Source of the DNA: Candidatus Heimdallarchaeota archaeon
Lineage (GTDB): Archaea; Asgardarchaeota; Heimdallarchaeia; JABLTI01
NCBI GenBank assembly: GCA_030614005.1
Contig: JAUWKS010000094.1
Coordinates: forward strand, 1-10,403
Reading direction: 5' to 3'
DNA: 10,403 nucleotides
Below, piece after piece: positions 1,361-10,403 of this stretch. Numbering within the stretch: the stretch's first letter is position 1; each line of letters begins with the position of its first letter. The translations under genes and the position numbers were made by a program. The notes under the pieces were generated by a model. It worked only from the letters and a program-made list of their open reading frames with translations. It was not told the origin of the DNA and searched no databases.

Positions 1361-1429
1361 GTAGAATCTCTGCAATCACTTCTTCTTTAAGGTCTAGAAG
1401 TCCATTTCGGTAATGACACGCTTAGGTGG
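1361..1429 (+). repeat. Cassette-boundary repeat R1 (degenerate left arm, near-consensus right arm)
   Basis: gtagaatctctgcaatcacttcttctttaaggtctagaagtccatttcggtaatgacacgcttaggtgg aligns to R2-R4 and R7. Confidence 0.95.
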
Positions 1430-1464
1430 GAAGAATAAACTGAAAAAACATCTAAAGTATATTT

Positions 1465-1483
1465 ACCATCAATGGTTTTATAT
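1465..1483 (+). promoter_or_regulatory. Putative archaeal promoter of the MNT-HEPN operon (palindrome ACCATCAATGGT overlapping TATA-like TTTTATAT)
   Basis: ACCAT-CA-ATGGT at 1465-1476; TTTTATAT at 1476-1483, about 38 nt before ATG 1521. Confidence 0.5.
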
Positions 1484-1520
1484 TAGTAAGAGAAAATATA
1501 TGAATAACAGATGAGAAACA

Positions 1521-1841
1521 ATGAATGCGAAAGTGAAAAAACTTGTTCAGGAAATAAAAGCATACACAATGCGAGTTTATGGGGAAAAAATAAAGCAAGT
1601 ATTACTCTATGGTTCCCATGCTAGAAAAACTGCCACTCCTGAATCTGATATTGATTTACTTATAATTGTTGAAGAATCATTAGATCCTTTTGAAGTTAGA
1701 AGTCAGCTTAGTGACATCCTTTGGGATTTATTCATTGATACAGGAGAATTCATCTCAGTTGTGGTATTACCTGAAGAGTTTTTCATGAATTATAACTCAT
1801 CTTTTATTTTGAATGTAAAAGAAGAAGGTATAGTTATATGA
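1521..1841 (+). CDS. Minimal nucleotidyltransferase (MNT), putative antitoxin
   Basis: 106 aa; LYGS-HARKTATPES-DID matches the GSx10DxD motif; ATGA overlap with the downstream HEPN gene. Confidence 0.92.
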   Translation: MNAKVKKLVQEIKAYTMRVYGEKIKQVLLYGSHARKTATPESDIDLLIIVEESLDPFEVRSQLSDILWDLFIDTGEFISVVVLPEEFFMNYNSSFILNVKEEGIVI

Positions 1842-2221
1842 ATGAGATAACCAATTCAATTAAGAAAGCTGAGAAATTCTTACAGACAGCTGAATTGGTT
1901 CTAGAGCATGGAGATTTTGATACGTGTGTTTCGAGATGTTATTATGCAATGTACTATCTTGCAGAAGCTGTTCTTCTAACTGAAGAAATCAAAACCAGCT
2001 CCCATAAAGGAGTCATTAGTTCCTTTGGTCAATATTTTATTAAAACAGGTGTTTTTGACAGAGAGTTAGGAAAAGCAATCAATGAAGCTTATGATAAACG
2101 ATTGTATGGGGATTACTCTATTGGATTTGCTATAACTAAACCTAAAGCCGAAAAACAACTCAAAGTAGCAAAGGAATTTGTTGCAGAGCTGAAGGAATAT
2201 CTTGAGGAAAAATCAATATAA
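1838..2221 (+). CDS. HEPN-domain protein (UPF0332-like), putative toxin
   Basis: 127 aa; 'GDFDTCVSRCYYAMYY', 'SHKGVISSFGQYF' and 'RLYGDY' (Rx4Y) are typical of small HEPN proteins paired with MNT. Confidence 0.9.
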   Translation: MNEITNSIKKAEKFLQTAELVLEHGDFDTCVSRCYYAMYYLAEAVLLTEEIKTSSHKGVISSFGQYFIKTGVFDRELGKAINEAYDKRLYGDYSIGFAITKPKAEKQLKVAKEFVAELKEYLEEKSI

Positions 2222-2287
2222 AATCTACGACCCTCGCTTCTTCTGGTAGGTCTAGAAGTCCATTTCGGTAAGGACACGCATAGGTGG
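2218..2287 (+). repeat. Cassette-boundary repeat R2 (overlaps HEPN stop codon)
   Basis: ataaaatctacgaccctcgcttcttctggtaggtctagaagtccatttcggtaaggacacgcataggtgg; 2228-2274 matches R3 3111-3157 at 45/47 nt. Confidence 0.97.
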
Positions 2288-2386
2288 AAAGTACACATTG
2301 ACTGAGTATTTCGTTCCATAAAATTGAATTAAACTTTGAAGTCTAGATATTAAGTTCCTAATGAATAACAAAAAGGCAAAAAATTA

Positions 2387-2794
2387 TTATGCCCTATAAG
2401 GAACAATCTTCAAATTTTGAATGCGTTCAAAATGCTTTACATTTGCAGTAAGAACAGGAAAATCTAATGATAGAGCAATAGCTGCTATAGCGGTATCAGC
2501 AAAACCTATGTCAGAGCCTTTATCAACTAATTCTGCACGCAAAGTTCCAAATAATCGAGAATGGGCAAGGGAAAAGTCCAGTACTTGGAGTGAGTTGATG
2601 AAATTATCAAGCTTCAATAAACGTGATTCATGCCATATTCTTCGTTTCGCACCGAAAAATAATTCTGAAGTAGAGATAACAGTAGTAATGATATAATAAC
2701 CATCGGTGATAATCTCAGCTATAGTTTTCTTAGCTGATGGTTTACCAGCTAAAATATCGGATAGAAAATTGGTATCAGCTATAATTGGTTGCAT
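2387..2794 (-). CDS. vapC: PIN-domain VapC-family toxin
   Basis: IIADTN, ISTSELFFG, DTAIAAIA and LTANVKHF PIN motifs. The ORF track starts at 2803, but ATG 2794 overlaps the antitoxin stop (TAATG) and is the likelier start. Confidence 0.92.
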   Translation of the reverse strand: MQPIIADTNFLSDILAGKPSAKKTIAEIITDGYYIITTVISTSELFFGAKRRIWHESRLLKLDNFINSLQVLDFSLAHSRLFGTLRAELVDKGSDIGFADTAIAAIALSLDFPVLTANVKHFERIQNLKIVPYRA

Positions 2795-8799: not shown

Positions 8800-8839
8800 A
8801 GGGCTAGAAGTCCAGTTCGGTAAGGACACGCTTAGGTAG
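8770..8839 (+). repeat. Cassette-boundary repeat R7 (left arm degenerate and coding)
   Basis: ..gaccttctcgtcttcttgaagggctagaagtccagttcggtaaggacacgcttaggtag; ungapped alignment to the consensus. Confidence 0.93.
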
Positions 8840-8933
8840 TAAATATTTGGACACCATAACCATTAAATAGATTATTGTGATTAAGTATGCTACCCGTATA
8901 ATAAATCCATCCGGGAAAATTGGAGAAATGTTA

Positions 8934-10289
8934 ATGAAAAATCAATTATTAATACCTTTAATAGCGGTAGGACTAATAGGGCTTATTGGAACTTCTTCTA
9001 TGATAAGTTTGGTAGTTATTAAACAGAATAATATCAAAGAAATGGATACTCAATTTAGTGATTTATCATCAGAATATGAAACACTATTAGCAGAATTCGT
9101 TAATATTACAGAATGTTATGACGGTTTGATTGATGACTACCAAAATCTCACAGAGAATTATGAAGTGACCATAGCAATTTATAATATATTACTAGAAAAT
9201 AATTCAGATTTGCAAGAAGAATTAGATGACCTTCAAGCGACTTATGATAACCTAGTATTAAATTATAATGATCTTTTAGAAGATTATGATTTATTACTAA
9301 CATCATTTAACAATCTACAAGAAGATTACAATAGCCTTCAAGATGAATACGATGATCTAGAATTTGATTATAATCAACTGGATGAAATGTATCAAAATCT
9401 AAATGAAGCATATGTAAATTTACAAGAGGATTATAGTTTATTGCAAACTAATTATAATACATTACAAAACGATTTTGATGCACTTACTTTACAATACAAT
9501 GATCTTCTAGATTCATATAATGATGTTTCTAATGCTCTTGATATGTTTTTAGATTTTATTATAAATGAACTACCTATGGCACAAAAGATGGCATTTTATT
9601 ATCAATTTGTTAGAAATGCTGAACCTGAATGGTGGAGTTATGATGAAATGTTAATTTTTGCAGAAAAATTAATCTTACATTCGATATCTGAATATAATCC
9701 ATTTACCTCTGTAGATGCAATTTTAAACGTTTACAATTTCTTTGAAAATAGTTCAATGGAAGATAATTATAATACAATAATAAATGTATTTGGAGATTTT
9801 TACCCCTACTGGGATTCCAGTGCATCTCTTCAAACGATTCAAAATTGGATTACTGAAAATTTAGATTATATATATGATTCAGTTACAACTTGGAATCGAA
9901 ATTATGATAATGATTTCTTCCAAAGTCCTCTTGAAACAATAATGTATAGAGGTGGAGATTGTGATGATTATGCAATTACATCATGTGCAATGTTTGAAAT
10001 GCAAGGATGGGAAACAGCCATGGGGGGTATATTTGACCCAGAACATGGTCTTTATGGATCCTTTGGGCATGCATTCCTTTTTGTCAATGTTGGAGAAGAT
10101 GCATATACTTCAACAATTCATTGGCACATTGGTGGAGGACCAGCTGGTTATCCTTGGATACCAGTAGACACTCTATGGTGTGAAACGATAGGAGATACTC
10201 CTGCATGGTTACAATGGTATTACGATTTTGGAGATGCAACTTGGATAGCAGACCATATCCATATAGAAATTGTAGATGGAATATTCTAA
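8934..10289 (+). CDS. Membrane-anchored coiled-coil protein with C-terminal transglutaminase-like (C93/BTLCP-like) cysteine-protease domain
   Basis: N-terminal TM; 23 heptads; SPLETIMYRGGDCDDYAI (Cys), GHAFLFV (His), WIPVD (Asp). ATG 8934 (or 8928) follows GGAG; the ORF track start is GTG 8877. Confidence 0.85.
   Translation: MKNQLLIPLIAVGLIGLIGTSSMISLVVIKQNNIKEMDTQFSDLSSEYETLLAEFVNITECYDGLIDDYQNLTENYEVTIAIYNILLENNSDLQEELDDLQATYDNLVLNYNDLLEDYDLLLTSFNNLQEDYNSLQDEYDDLEFDYNQLDEMYQNLNEAYVNLQEDYSLLQTNYNTLQNDFDALTLQYNDLLDSYNDVSNALDMFLDFIINELPMAQKMAFYYQFVRNAEPEWWSYDEMLIFAEKLILHSISEYNPFTSVDAILNVYNFFENSSMEDNYNTIINVFGDFYPYWDSSASLQTIQNWITENLDYIYDSVTTWNRNYDNDFFQSPLETIMYRGGDCDDYAITSCAMFEMQGWETAMGGIFDPEHGLYGSFGHAFLFVNVGEDAYTSTIHWHIGGGPAGYPWIPVDTLWCETIGDTPAWLQWYYDFGDATWIADHIHIEIVDGIF
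9060..9542 (+). repeat. Coding heptad repeat (23 x 7 aa, xLxxxYx)
   Basis: DLSSEYE...DVSNALD in unbroken register. Confidence 0.9.
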
Positions 10290-10292
10290 CAA

Positions 10293-10310
10293 TTTCATTT
10301 TTTCCTTTTT
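10293..10310 (+). terminator. Putative T-tract terminator
   Basis: tttcatttttttccttttt-like T-rich tract directly after the stop at 10289. Confidence 0.5.
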
Positions 10311-10347
10311 CCAATCAGTTAACCCTAGTCTCACCTGAGACTGTGGG
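10303..10347. repeat. Upstream hairpin module, copy B
   Basis: AGTCTCA-CC-TGAGACT is a perfect inverted repeat (10327-10342), flanked by CCT/GGG; homologous to 4686-4730. Confidence 0.8.
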
Positions 10348-10366
10348 AATAAGAAAAATAAAAAAT

Positions 10367-10403
10367 GTAGAATCTACAACACTCGCTTCTTCAAGGTTTA
10401 GAA
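10367..10403 (+). repeat. Cassette-boundary repeat R8 (truncated by window end)
   Basis: gtagaatctacaacactcgcttcttcaaggtttagaa; 3-nt deletion relative to the consensus. Confidence 0.9.

What the first reader, a model, noticed from the sequence alone, without database searches (positions are those of the whole stretch)
1361..10403. Integron-like gene-cassette array delimited by a non-attC ~70-bp repeat in a probable Asgard archaeon
Seen: 8 same-strand copies of one repeat, starting at 1361, 2218, 3101, 4772, 6857, 8010, 8770 and 10367 (spacings 857, 883, 1671, 2085, 1153, 760, 1597 nt). They sit at boundaries between unrelated 1-3 gene blocks, regardless of gene orientation (divergent, convergent and tandem junctions all occur). 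Established: superintegron arrays have this layout, with TA cassettes carrying their own promoters, but attC sites need RYYYAAC...GTTRRRY boxes, which this consensus lacks. Inference: a cassette capture and shuffling platform that uses a different recombination site and an enzyme encoded elsewhere. A REP/MITE-like element that merely prefers intergenic DNA is the alternative.
Basis: partly seen in the sequence, partly recalled or inferred. Interest (0 to 1): 0.92.

Follow-up and report, generated by a model that had tools for sequence, protein, structure and literature searches.

The report
Gene-cassette array built on 23S rRNA tail repeats
In one genus of Heimdall (Asgard) archaea, small blocks of accessory genes are strung together and shuffled between copies of a repeat that is a duplicate of the tail end of the 23S ribosomal RNA gene: an integron-like gene-capture array with a recombination site I did not find described in the literature searched, and no recognisable enzyme next to it.

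Summary
The repeat is real. Seven of the eight claimed copies are significant; the one at 6857 is only a 26-nt remnant. The window is a whole 10.4-kb contig of a Heimdallarchaeota MAG.

New here: the repeat is a copy of the last ~25 nt of the 23S rRNA plus ~50 nt (long form ~165 nt) of its 3' trailer. That is the 3' strand of the 23S processing stem. The true 23S 3' end is the master copy, and arrays start right after it in three species.

I collected 275 copies on 78 contigs from 6 genomes and 55 metagenome loci. Orientation is uniform within every contig but one. Median spacing is 1.4 kb. The repeat occurs in 9 of 10 genomes of the genus and in 0 of 30 other genomes of the class.

Single cassettes recur at 87-100% identity with different neighbours. 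One two-cassette block sits in a site that is empty and repeat-free in two relatives. The clearest break points fall in an invariant CTTCTTCT at the centre of a dif-like 11-6-11 dyad. Others lie at the repeat's right edge.

It has no attC boxes, no hairpin and no adjacent integrase. G000 shows no RT, HUH or serine recombinase, and only a XerA-like tyrosine recombinase encoded elsewhere.

Verdict: an integron-like cassette array using an rRNA-derived site. The enzyme is unknown.

The parts
1..1330 (-). Flank to the left of the last repeat: two genes (83-601, unknown; 718-1266, LVIVD-repeat protein). Probably the distal edge of the array.
   Evidence: No repeat lies to the left of 1337. Bases 156-1329 are collinear with G006:C176 at 75% identity. 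Pfam.
1337..1456 (+). Repeat copy 1 (core 1361-1433; invariant CTTCTTCT at 1379-1386). It reads antisense to the 23S 3' end plus trailer.
   Evidence: nhmmer E=2.6e-31. 92% identical to the master copy over 74 nt. Coordinates.
1521..2221 (+). Cassette: MNT nucleotidyltransferase (1521-1841) and HEPN (1838-2221), a toxin-antitoxin pair.
   Evidence: Pfam PF18765/PF01909 and PF05168. The unit 1352-2262 recurs at G010:C33:7292-6366 (87%) and G010:C28:32387-31543 (91%) with other neighbours.
2208..2323 (+). Repeat copy 2 (CTTCTTCT at 2237-2244).
   Evidence: nhmmer E=1.1e-29. Compared with G010:C33:6380, similarity coming from the left cassette ends 2 nt before the AAGG of the core.
2387..3015 (-). 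Cassette: VapC PIN toxin (2387-2803) and VapB antitoxin (2794-3015).
   Evidence: Pfam PF01850 and PF02697. Homologous block at G005:C75:11595-12259, 78%.
3085..3173 (+). Repeat copy 3 (CTTCTTCT at 3120-3127).
   Evidence: nhmmer E=7e-22.
3200..4655 (-). Block with a leucine-rich-repeat protein (3200-4309, 72-nt tandem units) and a small unknown ORF (4377-4655).
   Evidence: Pfam LRR_8/LRR_4. Tandem families D1/D4. The ORF 4652-4891 overlaps the long-form repeat and had no Pfam match, so I read it as probably spurious.
4654..4855 (+). Repeat copy 4, long form. A second CTTCTTC motif ('site A') lies at 4655-4661, followed by trailer hairpin and A-rich (oligo-T on the rRNA strand) sequence. The core CTTCTTCT is at 4791-4798.
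   Evidence: 85% identical over 185 nt to the master trailer, positions x283-462. Alignment. Coordinates.
4851..5567 (-). Cassette: DUF5615 (4851-5237) and DUF433 (5227-5466), a toxin-antitoxin-like pair.
   Evidence: Pfam PF18480 and PF04255. The unit 4654-5567 recurs at G010:C28:21224-20311 and C33:3834-2934 (92%), and in part at C28:42569-42187 (93%), each time with different left neighbours.
5574..6803 (-). M28-family peptidase gene. There is no repeat at its 3' boundary (5567/5574).
   Evidence: Pfam PF04389. In G010 the neighbouring cassette is followed by a repeat at this point; here it is not.
6856..6881 (+). Doubtful remnant of a repeat (left arm plus CACTTCTT).
   Evidence: nhmmer E=0.19, 4 bits. 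It does not align with the other copies.
6918..7952 (-). Aminoglycoside/choline-kinase-type phosphotransferase (APH family) gene.
   Evidence: Pfam PF01636. 74% match at G006:C141:11868-12808.
7995..8039 (+). Repeat copy 6: left arm and CTTCTTCT (8029-8036) are kept, the right part has decayed.
   Evidence: nhmmer E=4e-8. Sequence shown.
8143..8799 (+). 218-aa protein of unknown function. The family recurs in arrays and has a conserved TATA-like box upstream.
   Evidence: No Pfam match. Six relatives on five array contigs. Conserved upstream TATATATCGC in the family. ESM Atlas gives only weak leads, 0.83.
8779..8849 (+). Repeat copy 7 (CGTCTTCT at 8789-8796). The left arm has diverged and is overlapped by the end of the 218-aa ORF.
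   Evidence: nhmmer E=7.5e-22..
8877..10289 (+). 470-aa coiled-coil protein with a transglutaminase-like domain.
   Evidence: Pfam PF04473/PF01841. Two relatives in G005 arrays.
10303..10403 (+). Repeat copy 8, long form with the trailer hairpin (CTTCTTC at 10386-10392). It is cut by the contig end.
   Evidence: 75% identical over 122 aligned columns to master positions x318-438. nhmmer E=5e-7. Many metagenome contigs also end inside a repeat.

Best explanation
The window is part of a chromosomal gene-cassette array of a Heimdallarchaeota archaeon.

SHOWN. The repeat is a duplicate of the 3' strand of the 23S rRNA processing stem: the last ~25 nt of the 23S, ~50 nt of 3' trailer, and in long copies a further ~115 nt holding the oligo-T tract and a hairpin. 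The genuine 23S 3' end is the master copy, and arrays begin directly after it. All copies on an array contig point the same way. Cassettes of 1-3 accessory genes, many of them toxin-antitoxin pairs, are discrete units. They turn up in other arrays and other species with different neighbours, and once in a site that has no repeat in two relatives.

INFERRED. Cassettes are inserted, excised and swapped by recombination inside the repeat, as integron cassettes are at attI and attC. The exchange takes place mostly in or beside the invariant CTTCTTCT, about 35-43 nt downstream of the mature 23S end. That motif lies at the centre of a 28-bp site with an 11-6-11 layout, TCACTTCTTCT / TTAAGG / TCTAGAAGTCC, which is the layout of tyrosine-recombinase sites such as dif. 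The enzyme is encoded elsewhere. The only candidate found is the genus's conserved XerA-like tyrosine recombinase. Each cassette carries a left arm that imitates the distal trailer, so whichever cassette lands next to the 23S gene restores the base of the processing stem. Gene conversion and homologous recombination between repeats add further shuffling.
For: - Identity of the repeat. Rfam LSU_rRNA_archaea ends inside the master copy. The leader and trailer form a -55 kcal/mol duplex that the repeat spans. Some copies reach 125-330 nt into 23S sequence.
- Anchoring. The 23S gene is followed by an array in G000:C95 and G005:C98 (a 130-kb contig). In G009:C20 the master copy sits at the 23S 3' end, and what follows it differs from an otherwise identical metagenome contig. 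Conserved genes lie upstream of the 23S in all three.
- Scale and polarity. 275 copies on 78 contigs; 50 of the 51 contigs with two or more copies are uniform in orientation (log10 P about -58 under random orientation). Median spacing is 1446 nt.
- Distribution. 9 of 10 genomes of the genus and 0 of 30 other genomes of the class. In two complete and two further genomes of other genera, the genome's own 23S trailer is not repeated in the 7 kb downstream of the 23S; a genome-wide search with the G016 trailer in three of them found only the leader.
- Modularity. Window units 1352-2262 and 4654-5567 recur in G010 arrays with other neighbours. Some pairs have 95-100% identical DNA on one side of a repeat and unrelated DNA on the other.
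- Empty site. A 2.4-kb block of two repeat-plus-gene units at G000:C71 is missing, together with any repeat, from the same site in G010:C20 and G001:C295. Both junctions lie at GTTCT motifs, and the G001 site holds a look-alike of the core.
- Exchange point. Columns -15, -13 and -11 follow the left cassette. In the pooled pairs, columns -2, -1 and +4 follow the right cassette; after averaging by family only +4 stays above background. The cleanest pairs bracket it to -12..-1.
- Arms. Two left-arm types match the trailers of different species, yet both occur in the arrays of both.
- Enzyme. One tyrosine recombinase in G000 and its ~350-aa relatives are XerA-like and lie away from the arrays.
- Promoters. 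One cassette family carries a conserved TATA-like box.
Against: - No excised circle, hybrid junction or enzyme activity has been seen. Everything rests on comparing assemblies.
- At least four cassette families break at the right edge of the repeat (+17 to +40), not at CTTCTTCT. After averaging by family, linkage on the right side rises gradually. That is what homologous recombination or gene conversion would give.
- The dyad is weak: 6 of 11 arm positions are symmetric, and the 6-bp spacer varies between copies (TT, TG, GG or CG at -2/-1).
- The XerA-like protein scores 121 bits against an equivalog cut-off of 220, and nothing links it to the arrays.
- The left junction of the C71 insertion lies 7 nt to the left of CTTCTTCT, and about 35-45 nt of host DNA are missing there, so that event was not a clean single exchange.
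- All genomes are fragmented MAGs (G000 is 90% complete), so an enzyme gene could be unassembled. Array contigs break at the repeats.
Confidence: 0.6

Rival explanations
1. Homologous recombination only. The 23S-tail copies are portable stretches of homology. Cassettes are shuffled, lost and gained by the general recombination machinery (RadA) and by gene conversion between repeats, and by recombination with incoming DNA from relatives. No dedicated site-specific enzyme is involved.
For: Break points at the right edge of the repeat in at least four families, and a gradual rise of right-side linkage after family averaging. Whole repeats differ beside 98% identical cargo, as expected of conversion tracts. 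No dedicated recombinase was found. Every cell carries the master copy as a landing pad.
Against: The cleanest recent events (95-100% identical flank) and the left-side linkage all change over within about 10 nt at CTTCTTCT. A two-cassette block was inserted in a site with no repeat and only a short core-like motif. How new genes would first acquire a repeat is left unexplained. Half-copies that end or start at the core edges are common.
Confidence: 0.25
2. Decayed pile-up of integrative elements. Plasmids or viruses that used the 23S 3' end as attB integrated one after another, as elements do at tRNA genes. Each duplicated the att site, then lost its integrase and most of its genes. What remains is short blocks between att copies, with no ongoing cassette traffic.
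For: The repeats are duplicates of the 3' end of an RNA gene and are co-oriented. That is the signature of att duplication by integrases that target RNA genes (established for tRNA-targeting archaeal elements; review PMC8371274). Some copies carry up to 330 nt of 23S sequence.
Against: The blocks are small and regular (median 1.4 kb). No integrase gene or fragment was seen among 709 array ORFs. The core has no exact match in 2.9 million viral contigs. The same 1-kb units recur intact in several arrays. Neighbours differ at 100% identity, which points to recent exchange.
Confidence: 0.07
3. RNA-level module. The copies act in transcripts as terminators or processing or stability signals borrowed from the pre-rRNA (oligo-T tract; a strand able to pair with the 23S leader). 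They spread because they are useful to neighbouring genes. Cassette shuffling is then a by-product.
For: On the rRNA strand the long form carries an oligo-T tract and a hairpin. The repeat spans exactly the stem strand.
Against: Orientation is fixed along arrays whatever the direction of the flanking genes, so the element is sense for some genes and antisense for others. The fold is no better than shuffled sequence and there is no covariation. This rival does not explain co-transfer with cassettes or anchoring at the 23S gene.
Confidence: 0.04
4. MITE- or REP-like selfish repeat that merely prefers intergenic DNA; the genes between the copies are ordinary.
For: Short non-coding repeat, many copies, intergenic. 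One solo copy beside glmS has no evident cargo.
Against: No terminal inverted repeats and no stable hairpin. No Y1 HUH/RAYT transposase in G000; no Y2 match either, but that control failed. Orientation is uniform in 50 of 51 multi-copy contigs. Copies are clustered, not scattered: 17 copies on 6 of 126 contigs. Repeat and genes arrive together. Cargo is accessory and variable.
Confidence: 0.03
5. Classical integron, or a CALIN (an attC cluster lacking an integrase) with divergent attC sites.
For: The array layout and the toxin-antitoxin cassettes resemble chromosomal integrons. Integrons with attC sites and IntI have been reported in Archaea (PMC9668308).
Against: No R/L boxes and no hairpin. 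No IntI: the only tyrosine recombinase scores 38 bits against a 265-bit cut-off for the integron-integrase model. Cassettes have either gene orientation and their own promoters.
Confidence: 0.01

Closest known systems
Chromosomal (super)integrons and CALINs
   Same: Long one-way arrays of small cassettes separated by recombination sites. There is a primary site at a fixed chromosomal anchor (attI there, the 23S 3' end here). Each cassette carries its own copy of the site. Toxin-antitoxin cassettes are common. Cargo is accessory and differs between relatives.
   Different: The site is not an attC: it has no R/L boxes and no folded bottom strand. There is no IntI next to the anchor and no common Pc promoter. 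Genes lie in either direction and at least one cassette family carries its own promoter-like box. The site is derived from an rRNA gene end. The host is archaeal (Asgard).
Xer-dependent elements: IMEX arrays at dif, and pdif modules of Acinetobacter plasmids (from my own knowledge of that literature; archaeal Xer/dif from PMC2958812 and PMC8371274)
   Same: Mobile modules, often toxin-antitoxin or resistance genes, without a recombinase of their own. They are bounded by 28-bp 11-6-11 sites and are moved by the host's housekeeping Xer recombinase. Repeated insertion at one site builds arrays. Here the core fits an 11-6-11 layout, and the only tyrosine recombinase found is XerA-like and encoded elsewhere.
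   Different: No similarity of the core to a known dif has been shown, and the genus's own dif is unknown. The conserved unit (45-200 nt) is much longer than a dif site. pdif sites alternate in orientation, whereas these repeats are all direct. The master site lies in an rRNA processing stem.
Integrative elements that target the 3' end of RNA genes (tRNA-targeting archaeal and bacterial integrases), and tandem SCC composite islands at rlmH/orfX in staphylococci (own knowledge)
   Same: The att site overlaps the 3' end of a conserved gene, and integration duplicates it. The incoming DNA brings a replacement for the displaced gene end. Successive insertions give tandem units separated by direct att repeats.
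   Different: Those elements are kilobases to tens of kilobases long and encode their own integrase (tyrosine or large serine). Here the units are about 1-2.5 kb with no integrase. The target is the 23S rRNA trailer, which the review of archaeal tyrosine recombinases never mentions (0 hits for 'rRNA' in PMC8371274).
HeimM2, the rRNA-adjacent mobile element of Ca. Heimdallarchaeum (Wu et al. 2022, PMC8813620)
   Same: An Asgard (Heimdall) mobile element inserted directly next to an rRNA gene and carrying a leucine-rich-repeat protein gene.
   Different: HeimM2 is a single 8-kb element between the 16S gene and a tRNA gene, and it has a homing-endonuclease-like gene. No repeat-delimited cassette array and no 23S-derived repeat is described there.
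Hypervariable island HVR2 between the 23S and 5S rRNA genes of SAR11 (own knowledge)
   Same: A strain-variable gene island anchored next to the 23S rRNA gene.
   Different: HVR2 is thought to be exchanged by homologous recombination through its conserved rRNA flanks. It is not subdivided by dozens of internal copies of the rRNA end.

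Membership tests
Integron / CALIN | attC sites with R''/L'' and L'/R' boxes (RYYYAAC ... GTTRRRY) | tested here: not met
   The pattern has zero occurrences on either strand of the window and none inside any repeat.
Integron / CALIN | The attC strand folds into an imperfect hairpin | tested here: not met
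   DNA folds of both strands give z-scores from -0.4 to +1.5 against shuffles. Consensus fold is -5.7 kcal/mol with no helpful covariation.
Integron / CALIN | IntI integrase gene beside attI (needed for an integron, not for a CALIN) | tested here: not met
   No PF00589 match on array contigs. G000 has one match, at C58, and it is XerA-like: 38 bits against a 265-bit cut-off for TIGR02249.
Integron / CALIN | One-way array of small cassettes that differ between relatives | tested here: met
REP / RAYT | Palindromic 20-40-nt units and a Y1 HUH (RAYT) gene in the genome | tested here: not met
   No stable hairpin. No PF01797 match in G000, which is 90% complete.
MITE | Terminal inverted repeats, target-site duplication, insertion in both orientations, a parent transposon | tested here: not met
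   No inverted-repeat pair in the window spans a single copy. Orientation is uniform in 50 of 51 multi-copy contigs. No transposase among array ORFs.
CRISPR array | 25-40-nt repeats with 25-70-nt spacers | tested here: not met
   The unit is 75-200 nt and the spacing 0.7-5 kb, with genes in between.
Xer-dependent modules (IMEX, pdif modules) | Modules bounded by 28-bp sites of two 11-nt inverted arms and a 6-nt spacer | tested here: inconclusive
   The core can be written TCACTTCTTCT/TTAAGG/TCTAGAAGTCC, with 6 of 11 arm positions symmetric. The symmetry is weak and the spacer varies.
Xer-dependent modules (IMEX, pdif modules) | The site resembles the host's dif and is recombined by the host Xer protein | not testable with these tools
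   The dif of this genus is unknown. A XerA-like gene is present, but no binding or recombination can be tested here.
Integrative elements that target the end of an RNA gene | att is identical to the 3' end of a tRNA or rRNA gene and is duplicated on integration | tested here: met
   Copies match the last 25-330 nt of the 23S plus trailer, and the master copy is the real gene end.
Integrative elements that target the end of an RNA gene | The element encodes its own integrase | tested here: not met
   None among 709 ORFs of array contigs. None next to the 23S gene.
Tn7-like elements of Asgard archaea | TnsB/TnsC/TniQ genes, multi-site ends, 5-bp duplication, insertion downstream of an att gene | not tested
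   No transposition genes were seen among the annotated array proteins. The preprint on archaeal Tn7 elements never mentions an rRNA att site. The families themselves were not searched for.

The most novel reading that the evidence does not exclude
A previously undescribed, integron-like gene-capture system of Asgard archaea. The 3' strand of the 23S rRNA processing stem has been co-opted as the recombination site. Every cassette carries a mimic of the rRNA tail, so insertion next to the only 23S gene leaves rRNA maturation intact. The reaction is carried out either by the housekeeping XerA-like recombinase or by an enzyme of an unknown family. Cassettes move between species of the genus.
Probability: 0.4. 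Interest if true: 0.9.

Novelty: new variant of a known kind. Interest (0 to 1): 0.82.

Why it matters
Cassette arrays that capture and reshuffle genes are known almost only as bacterial integrons, which depend on attC sites and IntI. Here the same architecture appears in Heimdallarchaeota, among the closest archaeal relatives of eukaryotes. It uses a site of quite different origin, the tail of the 23S rRNA gene, and has no integrase beside it.

If it is confirmed:
- It adds a second, independently evolved solution to modular gene capture.
- It identifies a main route of accessory-gene flow in one Asgard genus: toxin-antitoxin pairs, transporters, repeat proteins, peptidases.
- It explains why these MAGs fragment at this locus.
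- It gives a short defined DNA site (28-45 bp) that could be tested as a recombination target for genetic tools in archaea.

It also raises a concrete question about how a cell tolerates constant rearrangement a few dozen bases from the end of what appears to be its only 23S rRNA gene (only one was found in this 90%-complete MAG).

Tried and rejected
- Rfam on the window gave only two sub-threshold snoRNA-like matches. There are no tRNAs.
- Coding-repeat idea. One frame is open through the repeat, but the copies lie between genes and the overlapping ORFs (2113-2319, 4652-4891) have no family match. Dropped.
- Group II intron or splice-site idea, prompted by GGTAAGTA in long copies. Dropped once that stretch proved to be 23S sequence. 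No reverse transcriptase in G000.
- Recombinase hunt. No serine recombinase and no Y1 HUH. No Y2/IS91 match in 11 genomes, but the control rang nowhere, so that search says nothing. No XerA-like protein among array ORFs. The recurrent array proteins I annotated are cargo or have no family match.
- LAGLIDADG search. It found a multi-copy LAGLIDADG-HTH family, but none of its genes lies on an array contig. No link was shown.
- Viral contigs: no exact match of the core.
- Other genera: no repeated 23S trailers.
- Split-site idea. I thought copies 8010 and 8770 might be two halves of one repeat split by a cassette. Rejected: relatives of that cassette have ordinary flanks, and both copies look like degenerate full copies.
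- The bacterial promoter and terminator scan is uninformative for an archaeon.
- The ESM Atlas look-up of the 218-aa protein gave only weak leads.
- I could not read an archaeal dif consensus from the papers, because it is given only in figures. The core-versus-dif comparison was therefore not made.
- A canonical bulge-helix-bulge motif could not be placed with confidence in the predicted stem.

Full report
OBSERVATION.

The window is an entire contig (G000:C102, 10,403 nt, about 32% G+C) of a 3.6-Mb MAG in 126 contigs, 90% complete. The repeat finder, an alignment of the eight claimed copies and two rounds of nhmmer all confirm same-strand copies. They lie at 1337-1456, 2208-2323, 3085-3173, 4654-4855, 7995-8039, 8779-8849 and 10303-10403. 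Their E-values in the window search run from 5e-7 to 3e-31.

The copy claimed at 6857 is only a 26-nt match (6856-6881, E=0.19). It may be a decayed left half, but it is not significant.

The copies lie between blocks of one to three genes, in either gene orientation:
- MNT/HEPN
- VapBC
- a leucine-rich-repeat protein plus a small ORF
- DUF433/DUF5615
- an M28 peptidase
- an APH-type kinase
- a 218-aa unknown protein
- a transglutaminase-like coiled-coil protein

One boundary, at 5567/5574, has no repeat.

WHAT THE REPEAT IS.

The copies do not fold. Single-strand DNA folds of both strands are no better than shuffles (z from -0.4 to +1.5). A consensus fold of nine copies gives -5.7 kcal/mol with no helpful covariation. 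The attC boxes are absent from the whole window. Rfam finds nothing in the window.

Some copies elsewhere in the genome share a further 40-100 nt on one side. Rfam then showed that this extension is the 3' end of the 23S rRNA. On contig C95 a stand-alone 23S gene occupies 25794-29052, and the best copy of the repeat (28997-29136) straddles its end.

Read in rRNA sense, the 75-nt unit is the last ~25 nt of the 23S plus the first ~50 nt of the 3' trailer. It pairs with the 5' leader in a -55 kcal/mol duplex. So the repeat is the 3' strand of the processing stem, which in archaea is cut by the splicing endonuclease before the 23S is circularised (background: PMC12918454).

Long copies (window 4654-4855 and 10303-10403) continue for about 115 nt into the trailer. 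They run through an oligo-T tract and a hairpin to a second CTTCTTC motif. Other copies run the opposite way, 125 to about 330 nt into 23S sequence.

DISTRIBUTION.

G000 has 17 detectable copies on 6 of its 126 contigs: seven in the window, three directly downstream of the 23S gene, one inverted copy upstream of it, and a few elsewhere.

The repeat occurs in 9 of 10 other genomes of the same genus and in none of 30 further genomes of the class. Exact core matches in the public species collection are all Heimdallarchaeota/Promethearchaeati MAGs.

I fetched array contigs from five relatives and 55 metagenome loci that hold an exact core match. Together with G000 they gave 275 copies on 78 contigs. 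Every contig but one is uniform in orientation. The exception is the inverted copy upstream of the 23S on C95. Under random orientation, log10 P is about -58. Median spacing is 1446 nt, with an interquartile range of 847-2614.

In G005 a 130-kb contig shows conserved genes, then the 23S, then nine copies over the 27 kb to the contig end. G000:C95 shows the same start, with three copies after the 23S. On G009:C20 only the master copy at the 23S end was found. The beta-galactosidase and alkaline-phosphatase genes upstream of the 23S are conserved in all three species.

I checked four genomes of other genera, two of them complete. In none is the genome's own 23S trailer repeated within the 7 kb downstream of the 23S gene. 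A genome-wide search with the G016 trailer in three of them found only the complementary leader, apart from three short chance-level matches.

The core has no exact match in 2.9 million viral contigs.

CASSETTES ARE MOBILE UNITS.

Window 4654-5567 (long repeat plus DUF433/DUF5615) recurs at 92% identity at G010:C28:21224-20311 and G010:C33:3834-2934, and in part at C28:42569-42187. Similarity starts exactly at the distal CTTCTTC motif and stops where the next repeat begins. The neighbours differ in each case. Window 1352-2262 (repeat plus MNT/HEPN) recurs at G010:C33 and G010:C28, again in other company. Most other window cassettes have no counterpart in the relatives.

Among all copies, several pairs have 95-100% identical DNA for 300 nt on one side of a repeat and unrelated DNA on the other. 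They include two pairs whose identical side is the 23S gene itself (L138/L096 and G009:C20/L099). The position next to the 23S therefore differs between very close relatives.

Many metagenome contigs begin or end inside a repeat. That is what variable arrays do to assemblies.

AN EMPTY SITE.

On G000:C71 two repeat-plus-gene units lie between a sulfotransferase gene and a PLP-enzyme gene. The units are a HicB-like antitoxin and a glycosyltransferase, 2.4 kb in all.

G010:C20 and G001:C295 have the same two flanking genes only 46-65 nt apart. They have no repeat there at all.

The HicB unit also occurs on G010:C2. The glycosyltransferase unit occurs in a G006 array, with a repeat directly upstream of it.

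The left junction falls after GGTTCTT in a terminator-like hairpin, and the right junction at GTTCTGCAAG. In G001 the empty site holds TTCTTCAATTAGGTCTGAA, a look-alike of the core TTCTTCTTTAAGGTCTAGAA. So repeat and genes travel together and can enter a site that offers only a short core-like motif. General homologous recombination with a resident repeat cannot do this.

A solo fragment (about 330 nt of 23S plus trailer) beside glmS on C112 is likewise absent from the orthologous site of G010.

WHERE THE EXCHANGE HAPPENS.

A profile of 100 anchored copies shows a universal core of about 45 nt, CAC TTCTTCTTTAAGGTCTAGAAGTCCATTTCGGTAATGACAC. About 50 copies lack a recognisable left arm, and their similarity begins just before CTTCTTC. 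Thirteen copies end on the right at varying points between AAGG and TTCGG, about half of them just after TCTAGAAGTCC.

The left arm comes in two types. They match the trailers of different species: G000 and G010 have one, G005 and G009 the other. Yet both types occur in the arrays of both groups. The arms therefore travel with the cassettes.

For pairs of copies that share only the left or only the right cassette, I asked which variable columns of the repeat go with which side. Columns are counted from the AAGG of the core. Columns -15, -13 and -11 follow the left cassette: identity 0.92-1.0 against a background of 0.4-0.5. In the pooled pairs, columns -2, -1 and +4 follow the right cassette, but after averaging by family only +4 stays above background.

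The cleanest individual cases bracket the change-over to -12..-1, that is CACTTCTTCTT. They are L103 versus G006:C217, and L085/L088 versus L116/L133. Window repeat 2 compared with G010:C33 changes over at -2.

This stretch is the centre of a 28-bp element, TCACTTCTTCT / TTAAGG / TCTAGAAGTCC, in which ACTTCT and AGAAGT are inverted. Two 11-nt arms around a 6-nt spacer, cleaved at the spacer ends, is the layout of dif and other tyrosine-recombinase sites (PMC8371274).

The picture is not clean, however. At least four cassette families change over at the right edge of the repeat (+17 to +40). After family averaging, right-side linkage rises gradually. Gene conversion or homologous recombination between repeats must therefore act as well, and could in principle account for more.

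THE ENZYME.

No recombinase lies next to the 23S gene, at the one array end examined (G010:C33), or among the 709 ORFs of all array contigs. The recurrent array proteins I annotated are cargo or have no family match: toxin-antitoxin pairs, ABC transporters, TPR-STAND and TPR-CHAT proteins, HEAT-repeat proteins, giant TSP3-repeat proteins, a beta-lactamase-fold protein, an aldehyde oxidoreductase, an alcohol dehydrogenase.

G000 has no match to serine recombinases, reverse transcriptases or Y1 HUH transposases. It has one tyrosine recombinase, cut by a contig end. Full-length relatives of about 350 aa in sister genomes are XerA-like: NF040815 at 121 bits, below the equivalog cut-off of 220, and PDB 4a8e at 7e-18. 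They sit among ordinary genes.

That makes a Xer-type reaction the leading guess, as in IMEX elements and pdif modules. It is no more than a guess.

COMPARISON WITH WHAT IS KNOWN.

The system works like a chromosomal integron: an anchor site, a one-way array, cassettes that carry their own site, many toxin-antitoxin pairs. It fails every sequence-level criterion of that family.

It shares with RNA-gene-targeting integrative elements the duplication of a gene's 3' end. But the units are tiny and have no integrase.

Several papers I checked do not describe it:
- The paper on circularised Heimdallarchaeum genomes describes an 8-kb element beside the 16S gene, but no 23S-derived repeat array.
- The archaeal integron paper appears, from its title and abstract, to concern classical integrons with attC sites and IntI.
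- The review of archaeal tyrosine recombinases never mentions rRNA targets.
- The preprint on archaeal Tn7 elements lists no rRNA att site.
- Further text searches found nothing closer.

I therefore rate it a new variant of a known kind of system. The 23S-derived site and its genus-wide use are the new facts. The mechanism is still open.

CONFIDENCE.

- That this is a real cassette array delimited by copies of the 23S tail and anchored at the 23S gene: about 0.9.
- That cassettes move as units between arrays and species: about 0.85.
- That the main reaction is site-specific at CTTCTTCT: about 0.5.
- That the XerA-like protein performs it: about 0.2.

Noticed in passing
G000 contigs C48:209-1834, C63:35625-37250, C86:3744-5195, C78:5716-7254, C110:42910-44556, C9:124383-125957, C9:127789-129360, C9:142745-144373, C8:4611-6239, C67:40710-42281: A multi-copy family of 480-550-aa proteins with a central double LAGLIDADG domain and a C-terminal XRE-type HTH: about 10 copies in G000 and 22 matches in G005. 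Protein identity is 30-83%. Several copies share 1.3-2.8 kb of DNA including flanks, so they belong to a repeated element. None lies on an array contig, and any link to the cassette arrays is untested.
   Followed up: partly
L140 (G000:C63:32000-41000), positions 3438-9001: One LAGLIDADG-HTH gene starts about 100 nt after a tRNA gene (3438-3522). It is followed by about 3.7 kb with no ORF of 90 aa or more and no Ns.
   Followed up: no
L013 (G000:C95:18001-36024), 7794-11052: The 23S rRNA gene stands alone, with no 16S or 5S on the 36-kb contig. It carries an insertion of about 128 nt (an expansion segment) near its 3' end relative to the Rfam archaeal model.
   Followed up: no
G000:C95:20578-20687: This is the only inverted copy found: a core with a type-II left arm, joined directly to a 33-nt piece (94% identical to 23S positions C95:28770-28802). 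It lies 5 kb upstream of the real 23S gene, next to a winged-helix (DUF7343) protein gene. It may be a relic of another 23S end or of an inversion.
   Followed up: no
G000:C112:14700-15030: A solo pseudo-copy of about 330 nt of the 23S 3' region plus trailer lies downstream of glmS. It has no obvious cargo and is absent from the same site in G010:C19.
   Followed up: partly
window 4655-4666; master trailer on C95; 23S leader at L013 about 7760-7775: The distal motif ACTTCTTCAAGT of the long-form trailer is, on the rRNA strand, a perfect 12-nt complement of ACTTCTTCAAGT in the 23S 5' leader. The leader could therefore pair with either of two trailer segments. It is not known whether such alternative pairing matters for processing or for recombination.
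   Followed up: no
window 3782-4221: Six to seven tandem 72-nt (24-aa) units inside the leucine-rich-repeat gene, 67-82% identical to the reference unit.
   Followed up: no
L082 (G026:C1:2124500-2131900), about 220-440 nt downstream of the 23S 3' end: A long run of a 5-nt tandem repeat directly downstream of the 23S trailer in a complete genome of another genus.
   Followed up: no
L132:413-10687 and relatives on 18 array contigs: Giant proteins of up to 3424 aa with bacterial TSP3 repeats, a PPC domain and a Ca-binding domain of the binary-toxin-B/PA type. They are among the most frequent array cargo. A 1178-aa family (L137:9552-13088, 17 members) has no Pfam match.
   Followed up: no
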